Virus genome (UHGV): UHGV-0229204
Reading direction: 5' to 3' (one strand)
Length of the DNA: 11,049 nt
Source: a virus
The position numbers and the translations under genes were made by a program. Of the stretch, positions 1-10,219 are shown piece by piece; the first letter of the stretch is position 1; the number at the start of each line of letters is the position of its first letter. The notes beneath the pieces were generated by a model that saw only the letters and a list, made by a program, of their open reading frames with translations, was not told where the DNA came from and searched no databases.

Positions 1-3000
1 ACCGAGCCAGGTGTATAAACATTCGACTGTATGTACTGCCCAATCTTGGCGTTATCTATGCTGCCATCCTGAATAAACGCATCGCTGATAAATACCTGAC
101 CGTTGATTACAGCAAATGGTGAATACTGCGTGTCACCGCCACCGCTCATCAGGACGAACTGATTGGCGTTAAACCCAACGCGGGTGACTACCGGCTTACC
201 CGCTTCTGCCAGCACCGCGATCGACATCCCGGCGTTATACATCACACCGTTTATTCGAACCCCGGTTTTGAGGGTGTAAATTGCAGATGCCCCGGTCGCA
301 TCAACCACGGCGGTGAGCTTATCTTCCAGCGCGGCCGTCACATCATTGAACTGCGCCTGCACCTGCGTGGACATTTCAGCCATGGCCTTATTAACATCTG
401 CAATAGTCGTTTTGACCACCAGAATATCCGCGCGCACTTCGCCGTACTGCGCCCACTGATGCTCTACCGTTCCATGATTGGCCAGCGCATTCTGCAACGC
501 AGCTTCCAGATTGGTATCAATGTCGCTTGTAAGGCGGTCGCCGTCGGCAGACGTCAGGAAATCATCAGCAATATCGCCCAGGTAATCGTCAGCGTTTGCG
601 TTAGATACACCGCGAACCCAGCCGGTCCAGCCTGATTCATTACCCGTTCTGTCTACCAGTTGCGCACGGTACCAGAACTCCTGTCCCGCTTTTAAACCCA
701 GTTGGGTGTATTCGGCAGACGGATAAGGCACATCCGACAGCAAAAGAGGATTAGAGAAATCACTGTTCGCGGTGTACTGAATTTCCGTTTTCAGCGTGTC
801 CCCGGTATTAGCCGGGAATCCCCAGTTCAGGCGAATCCCCCAGTTGATCGGCGTTGTCGCAAAGCCGACAGGTTTCGGCGGATTTCCCACTTTACCCGTA
901 AGATTTACTTCTGATGATGTCGCCCATACTGATGAAACGTCGCTGGCGTTCACCGCCCTGACACGGACCAGATAGCGACCCGAGTAGATACCCTGCACTT
1001 CAAAGCCGAGAGAAGACGTTCGGGGCACACTAATCCAGTTGCCGCTGTCACGCCGCCATTCCGCCTCGTAAGCAACTGCACCCTGAACAGAATCCCAGGC
1101 AACGCGCATAGTGGTAATCGCAATGTTCTGGTTAACCGTAGAGTAACTGTCTACGACAATATTTCCTGGGGGAGCCTGAACCCCCGGTGGAATGACACTG
1201 ACTGGCCGCTCGTCCAGTCTTGCGCCGGTATCAACAGCGGAATAGATATCAGGGTTGTAAGTCGTCCCGGTGACCTCGAAAGTACCGTCGTTGTTGTCCC
1301 GCGTTCCCGTAACACGGAAAAGCGCTATAAACAGATCGTCAGAGTCCACACCCCAGTTACATTCAGCCTCCGGCGTTTCGCTGTAGGGTGTGGTGACAGT
1401 GACTGTGTTTCCGTTAACGGCCTGGACGGTTCTGGCCTGAGCTGTGCCTGACGGAAGATTCAAAAACAGCCTGTTACCGGCTTTCACATCAGCAGCGCGA
1501 TCGAGGGTTATGTTGCGGCCGTTAACCGCACTCACCCTGCCGCCGATAGTTCTTCCGGCCAGCTCGTTAGCAGCCACGCCGATCACCTCACCAACAGGGG
1601 GGACGTCCATGCCTGTGCTGAAGGTCACCACCTCGCCGATACCGTTGGTAAGCAGCGCCCAGCGCCCCCGCCGGTTTGCCTCTGACTGCCTGGTGCAGCC
1701 GATCGCAGTCATTTCGAGCTGACGATAATCGAAGCGCATGGCCAGATCGCTATCGTAAACAGGCTCAGGCGTATCTTTGTAGTGGTTGGCAGGGTCTGAC
1801 CAGTTCACCAGCGCGGCAGTGTTTCGGGTGGTTTCACTCGGGTCCGCAAAGGTAAATTTTCCTTCAACAACGCTGGCGTGGTTGTAGATGTGCCACACAT
1901 CCCGGGGCATATCGGCCAGGACATACATCTTATTGTCGCCCCAGTACGTCATGCCGCGAAATATACCCGCCAGATCACGAAGTACGGTCCAGGCGTCATT
2001 ACGGTCCTGGATATAAACGTTGCAACGAAAACGAGGCTCCGTCCCGCTGCCGCCCTTGCCGTCTGGTACCAGTTGATCGCAATACTGGGCGATGCGATAA
2101 AGTTCCCATTTGTCTATCTGAGTCGCATCGATTCTTTGACCCAGCCCGAAGCGCTCGTTCAGGATGATGTCGTAATATATCCAGGCTGGATTATCCGTCC
2201 ATGCCCATTTAAATACGCCCTCCCATGTACCAGAGTAAGTACGGGTTTCAGGATCATACGTGTCAGGTACACGGATGATTCGCCCTTTCGGATTGCACAC
2301 AACCTGAGGAATGCCATTGGGGAACTGCTTTGCGTCAAACTCTACATACAGCAGAGCTGTGTTAACGTAGCGAAGTTTGGCGTCAATAATTTCAGTAACG
2401 GCCACAACGCGCATGATGTCCACGACATTCACGCTCGTGGAATCCGGCGTGATTCTGCGAACCCGCAACTGCCATCCAGTCGAGGCTTTTGGAAGATTGA
2501 CGCGGTGGCTGCGCTCATAAAGCGACGTGGTTTTGTCATCAACAGCACCGTTAATCACCGTTTCATACGGCCCACCATCGACCGACAGATCGATAGCATA
2601 CTCAACGCGGGTGCCGACTTTATCGCCGTTGTTTTTCTGGAGTAAAAGAGTTGGCCATCCCAGGCGAATTCGCAGCGCAGAGAGCTGCGTGTTGGATACC
2701 GCGCGAACGTACGGCACGGCCTGTTTCAGCTCGTATGAAACCTGAATCTCGTTTTCAATGCCGGGGAAGCCCTGAATGTAGTCCTGGTCCTGAGTACCGG
2801 AACGGAACTCATATTTTACATTATTGAAGTTATAACTTCCGTTGGCGTTCTGAAGGGGCGTATATGAAGATGAGTCACCAAGAAAAATGTTTTTACCATC
2901 AAGTCCGCCAGCGAACTCACCCTCTCCAAGAGCAATCAGCACCTTTGCCCTCGCAATGGACTGAATGCTGTCCGGTGCTTCCACGGGCGTTCTGGTCTGA

Positions 3001-3044
3001 TTGCTGCCACCTTTACCGCGGCCTTTGATGATTGTCGTCGTCAT
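1..3044 (-). CDS. J: Host specificity / central tail fibre protein, lambda gpJ-like; N-terminal ~1014 codons only, the C-terminal receptor-binding part lies beyond the window start
   Basis: Uninterrupted minus-strand frame from ATG at 3044 to the window edge, absent from the ORF track presumably because it is open-ended. Translation begins MTTTIIKGRGKGGSNQTRTPVEAPDSIQSIARAKVLIALGEGEF and carries gpJ-like blocks (..YSGTWEGVFKWAWTDNPAWIYYDII.., ..ELYRIAQYCDQLVPDGKGG..TEPRFRCNVYI..) that align with lambda J (..YSGIWDGTFKPAYSNNMAWCLWDML.., ..ALYVIGQYCDQSVPDGFGGTEPRITCNAYL..) as I recall it. Position immediately downstream of I, as in lambda. Confidence 0.9.
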   Translation of the reverse strand, partial: MTTTIIKGRGKGGSNQTRTPVEAPDSIQSIARAKVLIALGEGEFAGGLDGKNIFLGDSSSYTPLQNANGSYNFNNVKYEFRSGTQDQDYIQGFPGIENEIQVSYELKQAVPYVRAVSNTQLSALRIRLGWPTLLLQKNNGDKVGTRVEYAIDLSVDGGPYETVINGAVDDKTTSLYERSHRVNLPKASTGWQLRVRRITPDSTSVNVVDIMRVVAVTEIIDAKLRYVNTALLYVEFDAKQFPNGIPQVVCNPKGRIIRVPDTYDPETRTYSGTWEGVFKWAWTDNPAWIYYDIILNERFGLGQRIDATQIDKWELYRIAQYCDQLVPDGKGGSGTEPRFRCNVYIQDRNDAWTVLRDLAGIFRGMTYWGDNKMYVLADMPRDVWHIYNHASVVEGKFTFADPSETTRNTAALVNWSDPANHYKDTPEPVYDSDLAMRFDYRQLEMTAIGCTRQSEANRRGRWALLTNGIGEVVTFSTGMDVPPVGEVIGVAANELAGRTIGGRVSAVNGRNITLDRAADVKAGNRLFLNLPSGTAQARTVQAVNGNTVTVTTPYSETPEAECNWGVDSDDLFIALFRVTGTRDNNDGTFEVTGTTYNPDIYSAVDTGARLDERPVSVIPPGVQAPPGNIVVDSYSTVNQNIAITTMRVAWDSVQGAVAYEAEWRRDSGNWISVPRTSSLGFEVQGIYSGRYLVRVRAVNASDVSSVWATSSEVNLTGKVGNPPKPVGFATTPINWGIRLNWGFPANTGDTLKTEIQYTANSDFSNPLLLSDVPYPSAEYTQLGLKAGQEFWYRAQLVDRTGNESGWTGWVRGVSNANADDYLGDIADDFLTSADGDRLTSDIDTNLEAALQNALANHGTVEHQWAQYGEVRADILVVKTTIADVNKAMAEMSTQVQAQFNDVTAALEDKLTAVVDATGASAIYTLKTGVRINGVMYNAGMSIAVLAEAGKPVVTRVGFNANQFVLMSGGGDTQYSPFAVINGQVFISDAFIQDGSIDNAKIGQYIQSNVYTPGS

Positions 3045-3053
3045 ATCGCGTCC

Positions 3054-3080
3054 ATAAAAAAAGCCACCGTCAGGTGGCTT
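3054..3080 (-). terminator. Intrinsic-terminator-like hairpin between I and J: perfect 8-bp palindromic stem AAGCCACC/GGTGGCTT, 4-nt loop, followed on the minus strand by TTTTTTAT
   Basis: Seen directly: plus strand 3061-3080 aagccacc gtca ggtggctt, preceded on the plus strand by an A-run at 3054-3060 (a U-tract on the minus strand). Lies in the 53-nt I-J intergenic gap, ending 10 nt upstream of the J ATG. Confidence 0.5.
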
Positions 3081-3097
3081 ATAGTACGTGGTTTGGT

Positions 3098-3685
3098 TTA
3101 TTGCTGATCTTCTGCATAAATCCCGGCTGAGATAATCGCACCGCCTATTTCCCTCTGTCCGTAAAGCAAAGGAACGGGGTTACCGGATGCCGTAGTATTG
3201 ACGGGTCCGCCAAACGCATAGGAAGGCTTATTATCTGGGTCCTGTCGCATCCTCAGACCAGCAACCTGAGGGGAAAGCATTTGCACTACACCACCCACAG
3301 CCATAGAACCAGCTGCGGCATATAGCGCCATTTGTGTACCTGCTGCCCATCCTATTGGGTTCCACCAGGTAAAAGCCGCAATTGCGGCGGCAGTAACAAT
3401 TTGAAAGAGGCCAGCCCTTTTACTGCCGCGTATTACAGGGATAATGCGAAGTTCATCGCCAGGTCCAAGAAGATCAAACTCTTCCTTTCCTATGTTTATT
3501 TGGTTTCGGAAGATGACAAAATCCAGCCCTTTCGCTCTGGTCTCGCGCAGGTAAGCATCAAAGCCATCAATGGTGTTAGAAAGCGCCCTGAACACTTCGC
3601 TGGCAGACGTTAGTGCGCGGCGATGCGTCCTGCCAAATCGCTGAGCCATTGAGCCGCTGAGTTTGATAACGGTTTTTCTTTCCAT
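3098..3685 (-). CDS. I: Tail assembly protein, lambda gpI-like
   Basis: 195-aa ORF with ATG at 3685 overlapping the K stop by 1 nt (ATGTAATGG). Contains ..QRFGR.. and a hydrophobic Gly/Ala-rich C-terminal half (..GLFQIVTAAAIAAF..GSMAVGGVVQMLSPQ..PVPLLYGQREIGG..) matching lambda gpI (..GGVFQIVLGAAAIAGS..VLGGVAQMLAPK..VLPVLYGEMRVGS..) from memory. Gene order K-I-J. Confidence 0.88.
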   Translation of the reverse strand: MERKTVIKLSGSMAQRFGRTHRRALTSASEVFRALSNTIDGFDAYLRETRAKGLDFVIFRNQINIGKEEFDLLGPGDELRIIPVIRGSKRAGLFQIVTAAAIAAFTWWNPIGWAAGTQMALYAAAGSMAVGGVVQMLSPQVAGLRMRQDPDNKPSYAFGGPVNTTASGNPVPLLYGQREIGGAIISAGIYAEDQQ

Positions 3686-8400: not shown

Positions 8401-8760
8401 CATCAGCGCCCGCTGAGACTCCGTGAAATCATCAGACGATTGGGAAGCCTGCTTTAGCCTGGCATTAACAGAGCTCCATTCATCGGCCAGCGATATAAGA
8501 TGACCAGTCGCAAATGCTCCAGCAAATGCACCTGCCATTCCCAGCGCTGAGGCCTTCGCGGTGTTTATTTGACTAGTTACCTCAGCTAAGGCACGCTGAG
8601 TTTCACGCGAAGCTGCGGCCGCTTGGCGTCCTCCAGTCTGCATTACCCGGTAATAGTCATTCCCCATTCTTGAAGCACGAGAAATTTCAGACTGAAATGA
8701 CTGAGAGTTTGCAGATATTTTGATGATCAGTTCGCGCAACGTAGCCATATTTTCACCCAT
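5494..8760 (-). CDS. H: Tail tape measure protein, lambda gpH-like (1088 aa from ATG 8760; 1084 aa if the ATG at 8748 is used)
   Basis: Longest ORF in the window. Ala/Gln-rich, coiled-coil-like N-terminal and central regions, and a C-terminal segment (..NWVDEATDYSSMAADGMKQAMGG..VLKIIQNVLVNMAVANGVSSIGS..GTAIQNAGANFTFNAKG..) that matches the lambda gpH C-terminus (..SEWEESATDSMSQVK..VLSMMTEILLKQAMVGIVGSIGS..GTAIQAAAAKFHFATGG..) from memory. Positioned between G-T and M. A T8 run directly abuts the first ATG, so the second ATG (MATLRELI.., preceded by GGTGA) may be the real start. Confidence 0.92.
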   Translation of the reverse strand: MGENMATLRELIIKISANSQSFQSEISRASRMGNDYYRVMQTGGRQAAAASRETQRALAEVTSQINTAKASALGMAGAFAGAFATGHLISLADEWSSVNARLKQASQSSDDFTESQRALMDISQRTGTAFSDNASLFARSAASMREYGYSSQQVLDVTEAISTGLKLSGASTAEASSVITQFSQALAQGVLRGEEFNSVNENGDRVIRALAAGMGVARKDLKAMADQGMLTADKVVPALISQLGTMRGEFEAMPQTVSAATTKVENAFMAWVGGANEATGATSALVAVLNTVSDNIDTVATAAGALAAIGGARYLGGMFGDLGNQTAQLIDARKNEIALASARAESATQSQRKAAADAIAAERAYQLSLSELELAKNTNAEATATQNSIAKRREMIAANSTLVQSNKAVSASQEALNRSTSVMNLFKSGATGLLSLVGGLPGILMLGAGAWYTMYQRQEQARESAIQYADTIEQVRDNLKSMSQTQISANLGQANISLDAQNSAIEQQKQKVAELSNQLYNAKLAANSASDGTWLYNDAVEKSAEFASELAVEEGRLEQMLNKRKQTQQLINDITDQAINKTVEMAGAVSSLTEMYDRLNKVSRQSTAVSPPKYAGPVLPALDNKQQQAIDKAQRQLELSGLKGLDKTRKQAEFDASDLNLPAGWREKYVSMEVESARQLQAIRDSSRHKGGKSEAEKTADAYDKLIKQQKEQIALQGQNTELAKVKYQVSQGELASLTEAQKKTLLQNAALIDQVKLREQLRNYEANLADSNASARAANEGQLLGYGQGTRFRERLQEQFNLRKEFEQKNTDLLRQRQAGEIDETFYQQGLALNKRYLDERLRDQEGYYAASDAQRDDWMTGLSEGYANWVDEATDYSSMAADGMKQAMGGAVTTITDMLNGNVDSWKDWGVSVLKIIQNVLVNMAVANGVSSIGSLFSFGASSAATASSGTAIQNAGANFTFNAKGNVYDSPSLSAYSNGVFQTPQLFAFAKGAGVFAEAGPEAIMPLTRAADGSLGVRAVGTPQVSGGMPSVNFGDINIQGGSSQAASQGTAGAAGRQLKDAITGVINEQASMPGSPLWRLIKGV

Positions 8761-8785
8761 AAAAAAAACCCGCTTGATAGCGGGT
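8761..8785 (-). terminator. Intrinsic-terminator-like hairpin: 7-bp stem ACCCGCT/AGCGGGT, 4-nt loop, then T8 on the minus strand, immediately 3' of the moron ORF and abutting the tape measure ATG
   Basis: Seen directly: plus strand 8761-8785 aaaaaaaa cccgct tgat agcgggt; the minus strand reads ACCCGCTATCAAGCGGGTTTTTTTT followed by ATGGGTGAAAATATGGCT. Confidence 0.6.
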
Positions 8786-8791
8786 CGTGAG

Positions 8792-8980
8792 TTATAAACT
8801 GTCTTTTCTTTTGTGAGCGACTTGTATTAATAAATCTATTTGCGCATCTTGTTTTTTATTTATCTCTTTAAGGGCTTCAACTTGTTCATTTGCCCTTGTG
8901 CTAAACCGTATTAAATAAAAAATCACAATTAGATTTATCAACCAGCCGAATATTCCAAACACTACTACCAGTGGTTCCAT
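8792..8980 (-). CDS. Small single-pass membrane protein (62 aa) encoded by an AT-rich moron between T and H; candidate YebO-like / HK97 gp15-like superinfection-exclusion protein
   Basis: ATG at 8980 preceded by a strong AAGGAGG (4-nt spacer). Product MEPLVVVFGIFGWLINLIVIFYLIRFSTRANEQVEALKEINKKQDAQIDLLIQVAHKRKDSL has an N-terminal hydrophobic helix and a charged helical tail. Local GC is about 30% against about 52-55% in flanking tail genes. Followed by the hairpin + T8. The track ORF 8792..9037 begins at an upstream alternative start with no RBS. Confidence 0.65.
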   Translation of the reverse strand: MEPLVVVFGIFGWLINLIVIFYLIRFSTRANEQVEALKEINKKQDAQIDLLIQVAHKRKDSL

Positions 8981-10160: not shown

Positions 10161-10172
10161 AGCTGTCTCCTG

Positions 10173-10201
10173 GTAAAAGAAAACCCGCCATTAAGCGGGT
10201 T
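10173..10201 (-). terminator. Intrinsic-terminator-like hairpin upstream of the major tail gene: 7-bp stem AACCCGC/GCGGGTT, 6-nt loop, then TTTTCTTTT on the minus strand
   Basis: Seen directly: plus strand 10182-10201 aacccgc cattaa gcgggtt. The minus strand continues TTTCTTTTACCAGGAGACAGCTATG. Same ACCCGC/GCGGGT stem core as the hairpin at 8761-8785. Confidence 0.5.
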
Positions 10202-10219
10202 CGTTGGGTGAATGATTTA

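What the first reader, a model, noticed from the sequence alone, without database searches (positions are those of the whole stretch)
3045..3097. Strong palindromic hairpin + T-run in the I-J intergenic gap, next to a weak J ribosome-binding site
Unlike the other tightly coupled junctions in this operon, I and J are separated by 53 nt containing a perfect 8-bp palindrome (AAGCCACC gtca GGTGGCTT) followed on the coding strand by TTTTTTAT. The J ATG follows 10 nt later with only a weak GGA as a possible Shine-Dalgarno. This arrangement could attenuate transcription or translation of the large, low-copy tip protein J relative to upstream genes, or act as a 3' stabiliser for the upstream message. 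It also marks where tail-fibre modules are most often exchanged between lambdoid phages.
Basis: seen in the sequence. Interest (0 to 1): 0.4.

Follow-up and report, generated by a model that had tools for sequence, protein, structure and literature searches.

The report
Conserved terminator hairpin before tail-tip gene J
The hairpin and T-run between phage tail genes I and J are real and are conserved, through compensatory base changes, in phage lambda and many distant relatives; they look like an ordinary transcription terminator sitting inside the late operon, a known kind of element whose role has not been measured.

Summary
The genes lie on the minus strand. The 53-nt I-J gap (3045-3097) holds a perfect 8-bp hairpin (3080..3061), five further T, a weak GGA Shine-Dalgarno and the J ATG (3044).

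It is not chance. Among 222 distinct J-upstream sequences from relatives, essentially all 168 with a 31-100 nt I-J gap carry a hairpin plus T-run. The stem ends 15-22 nt before the J start. There are 108 different stem-loops, with compensatory changes and G.U pairs valid only on the coding strand.

Lambda has the positional counterpart (J02459 15463-15482). Where 0.4-1.4 kb of accessory genes sit between I and J, the hairpin usually stays next to J.

T1-like virulent phages have a hairpin plus T-run followed by a conserved TATAAT at this junction.

Best reading: an intrinsic terminator inside a late operon that is probably antiterminated. It would stop unmodified polymerase before J. Termination was not measured.

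A recombination joint lies at 3091-3120, just upstream of the hairpin. The host-range breakpoint lies inside J (~900-1000).

Known kind, new member; interest is modest.

The parts
3098..3100 (-). TAA stop codon of tail assembly gene I (I = 3098..3685)
   Evidence: ORF list and translation. Pfam Lambda_tail_I, E = 9.7e-7.
3081..3097 (-). 17-nt spacer between the I stop and the stem. It is the most variable part of the gap, and its 5' end belongs to the recombination joint.
   Evidence: 59% of sites vary among 30 unique close relatives, against 2 of 16 stem sites. The stop-to-stem distance is 12-21 nt in nearly all relatives.
3091..3120 (-). 30-nt stretch identical in all close relatives (last codons of I, the stop, first 7 nt of the gap). 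The crossover between an L003-type I allele and an L004-type hairpin/J lies within it.
   Evidence: Five-way alignment A2 and sliding identity profiles.
3061..3080 (-). RNA hairpin: 8-bp stem AAGCCACC/GGTGGCTT (5 G-C pairs) with loop TGAC
   Evidence: Covariation. Covariance model R1 scores 44.2 bits on the coding strand and only 11.9 bits on the other.
3056..3060 (-). T-run (U-tract) directly after the stem; 7 consecutive T counting the two in the stem
   Evidence: All 190 relatives with a J-proximal hairpin have 4-7 T in the first 8 nt after the stem, 6 being the commonest count; at least 4 was required by the scan. Terminator d-score +16.7, formula recalled from memory.
3045..3055 (-). J translation-initiation region ATGGACGCGAT, with a weak GGA Shine-Dalgarno (3053..3051)
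   Evidence: SD/anti-SD energy -3.0 kcal/mol. Only 1 of 11 sites varies among close relatives. The 4-codon mini-ORF ATG GAC GCG ATA TGA that overlaps the J ATG is not conserved.
1..3044 (-). 5' part (1014 codons) of the tail-tip / central fibre gene J, which runs off the window
   Evidence: Translation. Pfam FNIII-A_GpJ, Phage-tail_3 and Phage_Tail_Tip.
8767..8786 (-). Sister element: hairpin plus TTTTTT after a YebO-like moron (8795..8980) and directly before tape-measure gene H
   Evidence: R1 hit 8744-8790, 28.4 bits. Pfam YebO, E = 1e-9.
10181..10202 (-). Sister element: weaker hairpin plus T-rich tail in the 59-nt gap before tail-tube gene V
   Evidence: R1 hit 10163-10205, 19 bits.

Best explanation
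The element is a Rho-independent (intrinsic) terminator encoded on the late-gene strand, packed directly against the ribosome-binding site of J. It is the positional counterpart of a hairpin in the I-J gap of phage lambda.

Proposed mechanism (inferred):
- An ordinary RNA polymerase arriving from upstream forms the GC-rich hairpin at the U-tract and is released before J. Such a polymerase could start at a prophage-expressed accessory gene, such as the YebO-like gene in this operon or cargo inserted between I and J in relatives, or at a spurious promoter.
- During lytic growth, the late transcription complex, modified by the phage's Q-type antiterminator, reads through.
- Because the I stop codon lies only 17 nt from the stem, a ribosome following the polymerase closely may further suppress termination.
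- The hairpin would therefore work as an insulator or checkpoint, not as a strong attenuator.
- As a by-product, the I-J gap becomes a safe place to insert accessory genes.

Shown: the structure, its strand, its conservation and covariation, its fixed position next to J, and the presence of an antiterminator gene in the closest complete prophage.

Inferred: termination itself, read-through, and the biological purpose.
For: 1. Canonical anatomy on the coding strand only: an 8-bp stem with 5 G-C pairs, a 4-nt loop and a U-tract. On the other strand there is no T-run, and the model scores only 11.9 bits there.

2. Deep conservation of structure rather than sequence. 163 of 168 unique junctions with a 31-100 nt gap passed the scan, and the other 5 also carry the hairpin on inspection. 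There are 108 distinct stem-loops.

3. Covariation test: 89.1% of cells are paired against 80.6% in shuffles (0 of 500 reach it). 45 cells have changes on both sides, against 12.4 in shuffles. Slid controls pair at 29-68%. RNAalifold finds the same helix independently.

4. U.G wobble pairs occur in several stems, for example AACTCGC/GCGGGTT and AGGTCAC/GTGGCCT. These would be C.A mismatches on the opposite strand. UUCG loops are frequent.

5. Among close relatives, the stem and T-run are kept while the spacer (59% of sites) and loop (75%) vary.

6. Lambda has the same element, with two compensatory pair changes.

7. With 0.4-1.4 kb inserts between I and J, 31 of 37 junctions keep a hairpin plus T-run in the 80 nt upstream of J, and in all but a few its stem ends within 25 nt of the J start. 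Forward-oriented cargo (NYN, SocA/Panacea, P63C, KilA-N, phi80 morF) lies upstream of the hairpin, in most cases ending within about 100 nt of it.

8. In T1-like virulent phages the same junction has a hairpin plus T-run followed by a conserved TATAAT or TACAAT. That suggests a terminator-promoter boundary.

9. The closest complete prophage encodes an 'antitermination protein' just upstream of the lysis and late genes.

10. The literature recognises such intra-late-operon terminators and proposes exactly these two roles, while stating that the roles are unknown (bioRxiv 10.1101/2020.10.05.325894). Morons carry their own promoter and terminator so that they can be expressed from repressed prophages (PMC3594210).

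11. The stop-to-stem distance is 12-21 nt. That lies in the range where the efficiency of terminator tR2 depended strongly on the upstream ribosome: 0.12-0.8 at 17-18 nt, and full only beyond 27 nt (PMC4824070).
Against: - No transcript 3' ends, reporter data or in vitro termination data exist for this element or its lambda counterpart, as far as I could find.
- In lambda the U-tract is interrupted (TTTTGTCATTT), so its predicted strength is lower.
- In this window there is no gene in the I-J gap whose read-through would need blocking.
- No convincing promoter is predicted upstream inside K or I; promoter-like hits are no more frequent than in shuffles.
- The tight, conserved 15-22 nt spacing to the J start is not required for a terminator and hints at a link with J translation.
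- With reverse-oriented cargo (HicAB in L106, the 210-aa ORF in L028) the hairpin cannot be the cargo's own terminator.
- Relatives in Burkholderia, Stenotrophomonas and Dhillonvirus do without it: there I and J overlap.
Confidence: 0.5

Rival explanations
1. Partial attenuator. Even for the late, antiterminated polymerase, the hairpin terminates a fixed fraction of transcripts. This lowers J mRNA relative to upstream genes to suit the low copy number of J. It is the first reader's main idea.
For: The terminator anatomy is the same as for the best explanation. J has a weak Shine-Dalgarno, so low expression seems to be wanted. [quoted passage not shown]
Against: The genes just upstream (M, L, K, I) are also low-copy or assembly proteins, so a step down exactly at I/J is not needed for stoichiometry. 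From my own knowledge, not checked here, Sampson et al. 1988 reported that translation initiation, not mRNA level, sets the relative rates of lambda late gene expression. Q-modified polymerase is known to ignore terminators.
Confidence: 0.15
2. mRNA processing and stability element. The hairpin protects the 3' end of the upstream (...K-I) segment from 3' exonucleases after cleavage in the U-rich stretch, or it caps the 5' end of the long J message. The result would be segments with different half-lives.
For: A stable hairpin next to a single-stranded U-rich tract is a typical RNase E context (established knowledge). Similar hairpins lie after lambda E and before V and H here. The position next to the J start is fixed.
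Against: A stabiliser needs no U-tract, yet the T-run is kept: all 190 junctions with a J-proximal hairpin have 4-7 T in the first 8 nt after the stem (at least 4 was required by the scan). In T1-like phages the element is followed by a promoter-like TATAAT, which fits termination better. There are no processing data.
Confidence: 0.12
3. Translation-initiation context for J. The hairpin keeps the weak J ribosome-binding site free of upstream pairing, and the U-tract serves as a ribosomal protein S1 binding enhancer. Together these would compensate for the loss of I-J translational coupling.
For: The stem end is always 15-22 nt from the J start. The sequence between them (T-run, then ATGG or GGAG type Shine-Dalgarno) is the best conserved part of the gap. 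The hairpin stays with J when cargo is inserted. Lineages without the hairpin have overlapping I stop and J start, that is, coupling instead.
Against: The same hairpin/T-run/RBS arrangement occurs before unrelated genes (H, V, lambda stf, HK446 I, phi80 L), so it is not specific to J. In T1-like phages the hairpin sits next to I and about 45-60 nt from J. The compact spacing may simply reflect genome economy.
Confidence: 0.12
4. Evolutionary scar or DNA-level element. It would be the left-over terminator of a lost moron, or a palindrome that promotes recombination at a module boundary, with no present function in expression.
For: The gap is a recombination joint and an accessory-gene insertion site in about one sixth of unique junctions. 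Moron terminators of the same design exist in the same operon.
Against: A functionless stem would decay. Instead there are 108 different stem-loops that keep pairing, with compensatory and strand-specific G.U changes, and purifying selection is visible among close relatives. The crossover lies upstream of the palindrome, not in it.
Confidence: 0.08

Closest known systems
Hairpin in the I-J intergenic gap of phage lambda (J02459 15463-15482; 60-nt gap)
   Same: It occupies the same position, 18 nt after the I stop. It is an 8-bp stem AAACCGCC/GGCGGTTT with a 4-nt loop, followed by T-rich sequence, TTTATGGAG and the J ATG. It differs from the window's stem by two compensatory pair changes. Model R1 scores it at 37 bits.
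   Different: The lambda U-tract is interrupted (TTTTGTCATTT) and its Shine-Dalgarno is stronger (GGAG). The I proteins are only 32% identical. I found no publication or annotation that describes the lambda hairpin.
Moron terminators of HK97/HK022-type phages (Juhala et al. 2000; HK97 gene 15 moron)
   Same: It is a factor-independent terminator inside the tail operon, on the late strand, directly followed by the start of the next essential gene. The window has a true example after its YebO-like gene (8767-8786), with the same hairpin/TTTTTT/ATGG design.
   Different: At I-J in this window there is no moron: 53 nt with no ORF and no promoter. The hairpin persists in hundreds of 'empty' junctions and next to reverse-oriented cargo.
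Intra-late-operon terminators of lambdoid phages read through by Q/gp23 antitermination (lambda tR' paradigm; phage L and P22 genome analyses)
   Same: It is a predicted intrinsic terminator within an operon thought to have a single antiterminated promoter. The closest prophage has an antiterminator gene in the canonical place.
   Different: tR' lies at the operon start and its read-through is demonstrated. For internal ones 'their roles are not known'. Nothing is measured here.
Terminator-promoter junction between I and J of T1-like (Drexlerviridae) virulent phages
   Same: The same gene junction carries a hairpin plus T-run on the coding strand.
   Different: There the hairpin lies 3-9 nt after the I stop. 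It is followed by a conserved TATAAT or TACAAT and a further ~45 nt leader before J. The window has no promoter-like sequence after its hairpin.

Membership tests
Intrinsic (Rho-independent) terminator | [quoted passage not shown] | tested here: met
   8-bp stem with 5 G-C pairs and a 4-nt loop; hairpin dG -12.6 kcal/mol. Gap z-score -4.05.
Intrinsic (Rho-independent) terminator | U-tract immediately 3' of the stem, on the same strand only | tested here: met
   7 consecutive T (3062..3056). The opposite strand has ATAGTACG after the stem. The model hits the coding strand at 44.2 bits and the other at 11.9 bits.
Intrinsic (Rho-independent) terminator | Lies outside translated sequence, far enough from the upstream stop codon for the hairpin to fold | tested here: inconclusive
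   It is 17 nt from the I stop, and 12-21 nt in relatives. For tR2 this is the range where efficiency varied from 0.12 to 0.8.
Intrinsic (Rho-independent) terminator | Releases transcripts at the U-tract in vivo or in vitro | not testable with these tools
   No 3'-end data were found. The held part of the lambda RIL-seq tables has no I-J entry.
Moron (promoter + gene + terminator cassette) | An extra gene with its own promoter lies directly upstream of the terminator | tested here: not met
   The 53-nt gap has no ORF. The feature is met for the sister hairpin at 8767-8786 (YebO-like gene) and in relatives with filled I-J slots.
Structured RNA under selection (conserved cis-element) | Base pairs maintained by compensatory changes across relatives | tested here: met
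   6 of 8 pairs show changes on both sides. 45 such cells were seen, against 12.4 in shuffles (0 of 500 reach it). Slid controls are far lower. RNAalifold gives the same helix.
Any curated Rfam family | Match to a covariance model | tested here: not met
   No match up to E = 1 in the whole window.
Translational operator bound by a specific protein (MS2 coat or RegA type) | Conserved loop or bulge sequence that serves as the recognition site | tested here: not met
   Loops vary freely in sequence and in length, from 3 to 6 nt (TGAC, TTCG, TCCG, CATGA, TTAT and others). 75% of loop sites vary even among close relatives.
Upstream mini-ORF coupling (AUGA overlap with J) | A conserved short ORF ending at the J start | tested here: not met
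   The window has ATG GAC GCG ATA TGA overlapping the J ATG. But only 29 of the 123 junction tails that contain an upstream ATG have a stop at or before the J start, and 67 of the 190 tails have no upstream ATG at all.

The most novel reading that the evidence does not exclude
The hairpin/U-tract/RBS unit may be a deeply conserved checkpoint that is gated by both antitermination and the ribosome finishing I.
- J nucleates tail-tip assembly and is a target of anti-phage systems such as Tai.
- Under this reading, J would be made only from Q-modified, ribosome-coupled late transcripts, and never from prophage-state transcription.
- The resident terminator would be what turns the I-J gap into a safe harbour where toxin-antitoxin and other accessory cargo accumulate.
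- A further variant: the terminated 3' end of the I message could give an Hfq-binding small RNA, as lambda tL2a does for PreS.
Probability: 0.15. Interest if true: 0.55.

Novelty: new member of a known kind. Interest (0 to 1): 0.3.

Why it matters
It shows that at least one of the unexplained terminators inside lambdoid late operons is not incidental. It has been kept at the same junction, by compensatory evolution, from lambda to Pseudomonas and Pandoraea prophages.

That gives a concrete and easily mutated test case, in lambda itself, for an old open question: what do internal terminators do in an antiterminated operon?

It also explains why the I-J gap is a recurrent insertion site for prophage accessory and toxin-antitoxin genes. 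And it helps place J start codons correctly in annotation; phi80 J appears to be annotated too long.

Tried and rejected
- Rfam scan of the whole window: nothing up to E = 1.
- Mini-ORF MDAI* overlapping the J ATG as a coupling device: not conserved.
- Protein-binding operator: the loops are not conserved.
- Bidirectional terminator, or terminator for antisense transcripts: there is no T-run on the plus strand.
- A promoter after the hairpin, as in T1-like phages: TATGGA is not a -10 element, and no promoter-like site was reported at this junction.
- Hfq/sRNA evidence from the lambda RIL-seq tables: no I-J entry in the part held.
- Literature searches for a described lambda I-J terminator or 3'-end data found nothing specific.
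- Sampson et al. 1988 could not be read because it is not held.
- My first count of 5 junctions 'without hairpin' was an artefact of the scan's filters.
- The d-scores of the lambda group are misleadingly low, because my stem extension swallowed the proximal U's.

Full report
**1. What is in the sequence.**

The window carries a lambda-type tail gene cluster on the minus strand. Pfam assigns:
- V (tail tube), the G and T chaperones;
- a 62-aa YebO-like gene;
- H (tape measure), M, L, K (JAB + NlpC/P60), I (Lambda_tail_I);
- the first 1014 codons of J.

I ends with TAA at 3100..3098 and J starts with ATG at 3044..3042, so the gap is the 53 nt at 3045..3097. On the coding strand the gap reads: a 17-nt spacer, AAGCCACC-TGAC-GGTGGCTT (3080..3061), TTTTT (3060..3056), ATGGACGCGAT, then ATG.

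- The gap folds far better than shuffles (z = -4.05, 0 of 200).
- The stem is the only perfect 8-bp short-loop inverted repeat in the window.
- The J Shine-Dalgarno is weak: GGA, -3.0 kcal/mol against -6 to -12 for most other genes.

**2. It is not unique within the operon.**

The coding strand has four gaps longer than 30 nt. Three of them hold a hairpin with a T-rich tail:
- before V (10202..10181);
- before H (8786..8767, directly after the YebO-like gene);
- before J.

The fourth gap lies upstream of the YebO-like gene, where a moron promoter would be expected. I built a covariance model from I-J junctions. It hits all three window sites on the coding strand (44.2, 28.4 and 19 bits). It also hits the equivalent punctuation in relatives: before H, V and the side-fibre gene in phage LAU1, before I and J in HK446, before L and J in phi80, and at I-J and after lom in lambda.

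**3. Relatives.**

The nearest DNA relatives are Hendrixvirinae phages (Enterobacter phage LAU1, Aeromonas phage AsXd-1) and five E. coli prophages. All keep the hairpin. Lambda itself has a 60-nt I-J gap with AAACCGCC-TGCG-GGCGGTTT, followed by T-rich sequence and TTTATGGAG before the J ATG. That is the same design with two compensatory pair changes.

I then collected loci around I homologues from viral contigs and from one genome per species, using four divergent I proteins as queries. I located the I stop and the J start by tblastn. This gave 383 loci and 222 distinct J-upstream sequences.

A hairpin with at least 4 T in the next 8 nt was found in:
- 163 of 168 junctions with a 31-100 nt gap; the other five also have it and only failed my filters;
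- 31 of 37 junctions with more than 100 nt between I and J;
- 2 of 13 where I and J overlap or nearly abut.

The stem ends 15-22 nt before the J start in nearly all. The I stop lies 12-21 nt before the stem. There are 108 different stem-loops. Hosts include Escherichia, Enterobacter, Pseudescherichia, Serratia, Photorhabdus, Pantoea, Rosenbergiella, Edwardsiella, Pseudomonas and Pandoraea, with I protein identity down to about 44%. In Burkholderia, Paraburkholderia, Stenotrophomonas and Comamonas relatives, and in a Dhillonvirus, the I stop and J start overlap and there is no hairpin.

**4. It is an RNA structure on the coding strand, and it is under selection.**

On a 60-sequence alignment:
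- 89.1% of cells pair, against 80.6% in shuffles (0 of 500 reach it);
- 6 of 8 pairs show changes on both sides;
- 45 cells have such double changes, against 12.4 expected;
- slid controls pair at only 29-68%.

RNAalifold predicts the same helix on its own. Several stems contain U.G pairs that would be C.A mismatches on the other strand, and UUCG loops are common. Among 77 close relatives (30 unique sequences), 59% of spacer sites and 75% of loop sites vary. Only 2 of 16 stem sites and 1 of 11 ribosome-binding-region sites vary.

Caveat: the loci come from four query families and are related to one another, so the counts overstate the number of independent events.

**5. Mosaicism.**

Sliding identity shows two I alleles, about 81% identical at the protein level, with boundaries near 3650 and 3100. 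The window carries the I allele of prophage L003 but the spacer, hairpin and J 5' region of prophage L004. The switch lies within the 30-nt stretch 3091..3120, which is identical in all relatives.

The much larger break, where identity falls from 97-100% to 50-70%, lies inside J at about window 900-1000. So the gap is a recombination joint, but it is not the host-range module boundary.

**6. The I-J gap is an insertion slot for accessory genes.**

About one sixth of unique junctions hold 0.4-1.4 kb of extra DNA between the I stop and the hairpin. Pfam identifies:
- HicA/HicB (reverse strand, Photorhabdus khanii);
- a NYN-domain protein;
- a SocA/Panacea protein with a partner;
- a P63C protein;
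- a KilA-N protein.

Phi80 has morF here. Forward-oriented cargo lies upstream of the hairpin, in most cases ending within about 100 nt of it. With reverse-oriented cargo the hairpin is still present next to J. In one prophage an IS3-family-like element sits in the hairpin loop, flanked by a 3-bp TCC duplication.

**7. T1-like virulent phages.**

In 44 unique Drexlerviridae junctions, nearly all have a hairpin plus T-run 3-9 nt after the I stop. About 7-10 nt later comes a conserved TATAAT or TACAAT, and J starts some 45 nt further on. At the same gene boundary, these phages therefore appear to have a terminator followed by a promoter.

**8. Mechanism.**

The anatomy, the strand specificity, the retained U-tract and the T1-like arrangement all point to transcription termination.

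The closest complete prophage has an antitermination protein gene just before the lysis and late genes. The late polymerase is therefore expected to read through, as with lambda Q (established knowledge).

The literature states that such internal terminators occur in lambdoid late operons and that 'their roles are not known'. It offers two possibilities: partial termination, or stopping spurious non-antiterminated transcription. Morons are said to carry their own terminators so that they can be expressed from repressed prophages.

I favour the insulator reading, at 0.5. Three points lead me there:
- the genes just upstream of J are also low-copy, so a step down at I/J is not needed;
- from my own knowledge, relative lambda late gene expression is reported to be set by translation initiation (Sampson et al. 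1988; not readable here);
- the element sits where prophage-expressed cargo accumulates.

The 12-21 nt stop-to-stem distance falls where the efficiency of terminator tR2 depended on the trailing ribosome. Termination may therefore be strongest for untranslated, uncoupled transcripts. This is inference only.

The rivals remain open because nothing was measured. They are a partial attenuator, an mRNA stabiliser or processing site, a translation context for the weak J start, and an evolutionary scar. The fixed 15-22 nt spacing to the J start is the main observation that the terminator model does not require.

**9. Comparison and novelty.**

The element is the positional counterpart of the lambda I-J hairpin. 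It belongs to the known class of intra-late-operon intrinsic terminators, which includes moron terminators. It matches no Rfam family.

It is not annotated in the lambda, HK446 or phi80 records, although other terminators are annotated in the HK446 and phi80 records. I found no paper that describes it. It is a new member of a known kind.

The breadth of conservation is a modestly useful result, because it offers a tractable test case in lambda. A specialist would not be surprised.

Noticed in passing
window 8792-8980 (-), with hairpin 8767-8786: A 62-aa YebO-like membrane protein gene lies between the T chaperone gene and tape-measure gene H. It has a strong Shine-Dalgarno (AAGGAGG) and its own terminator. 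This is the same slot and family as the HK97 gp15 superinfection-exclusion moron. Relatives carry other small genes in this slot (zinc-ribbon protein, hypothetical).
   Followed up: partly
window 8746-8760 (-): The start of H is ambiguous. The longest ORF starts at the ATG at 8760, which directly abuts the T-run. The motif TTTTTTATGGGTGAAAAT-ATG matches the hairpin/RBS design seen at I-J junctions, and this suggests the true start is the in-frame ATG at 8748.
   Followed up: partly
window 10163-10205 (-): A third, weaker hairpin with a T-rich tail lies in the 59-nt gap between the tail-completion gene and tail-tube gene V. It is followed by a good Shine-Dalgarno (AGGAG).
   Followed up: no
window ~900-1000 and ~3100/~3650: Sharp mosaic breakpoints. 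J identity to all close relatives falls from 97-100% to 50-70% at about 900-1000, which marks the receptor-binding C-terminal module. Gene I exists as two alleles about 81% identical at the protein level, exchanged as a cassette with conserved ends.
   Followed up: partly
L022:2086-3585 versus L025 (same IMG/VR source genome): An IS3-family-like element (ends TGAAGTGAACCCC ... GGGGTTCACTTCA) is inserted in the loop of the I-J hairpin, flanked by a 3-bp TCC duplication. It splits the terminator from gene I.
   Followed up: no
L161 (phi80 NC_021190) 2643-2744: The annotated phi80 J CDS starts 99 nt upstream of the position expected from homology, and it overlaps morF. A hairpin plus T-run plus AATGGGGTAAAA-ATG lies inside that extension, so the annotated start is probably too far upstream.
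   Followed up: partly
L159, L162, L406-L466 (T1-like and Webervirus I-J gaps): The terminator-like hairpin is followed within about 10 nt by a conserved TATAAT or TACAAT. This suggests a coupled terminator-promoter upstream of J in virulent Drexlerviridae.
   Followed up: partly
L103, L105, L106, L334, L340, L028 (between I and J): Diverse cargo sits in the I-J slot of prophages: HicAB toxin-antitoxin, a SocA/Panacea-domain pair, a NYN-domain protein, P63C and KilA-N proteins, and a 210-aa reverse-strand ORF with no Pfam match.
   Followed up: partly
L003, L006, L007 (E. coli prophages), tail tube gene: In several E. coli relatives the tail-tube gene V is annotated as a pseudogene 'missing C-terminus'. 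Other relatives have a longer V with an Ig-like domain. The window's V is the short 147-aa form.
   Followed up: no
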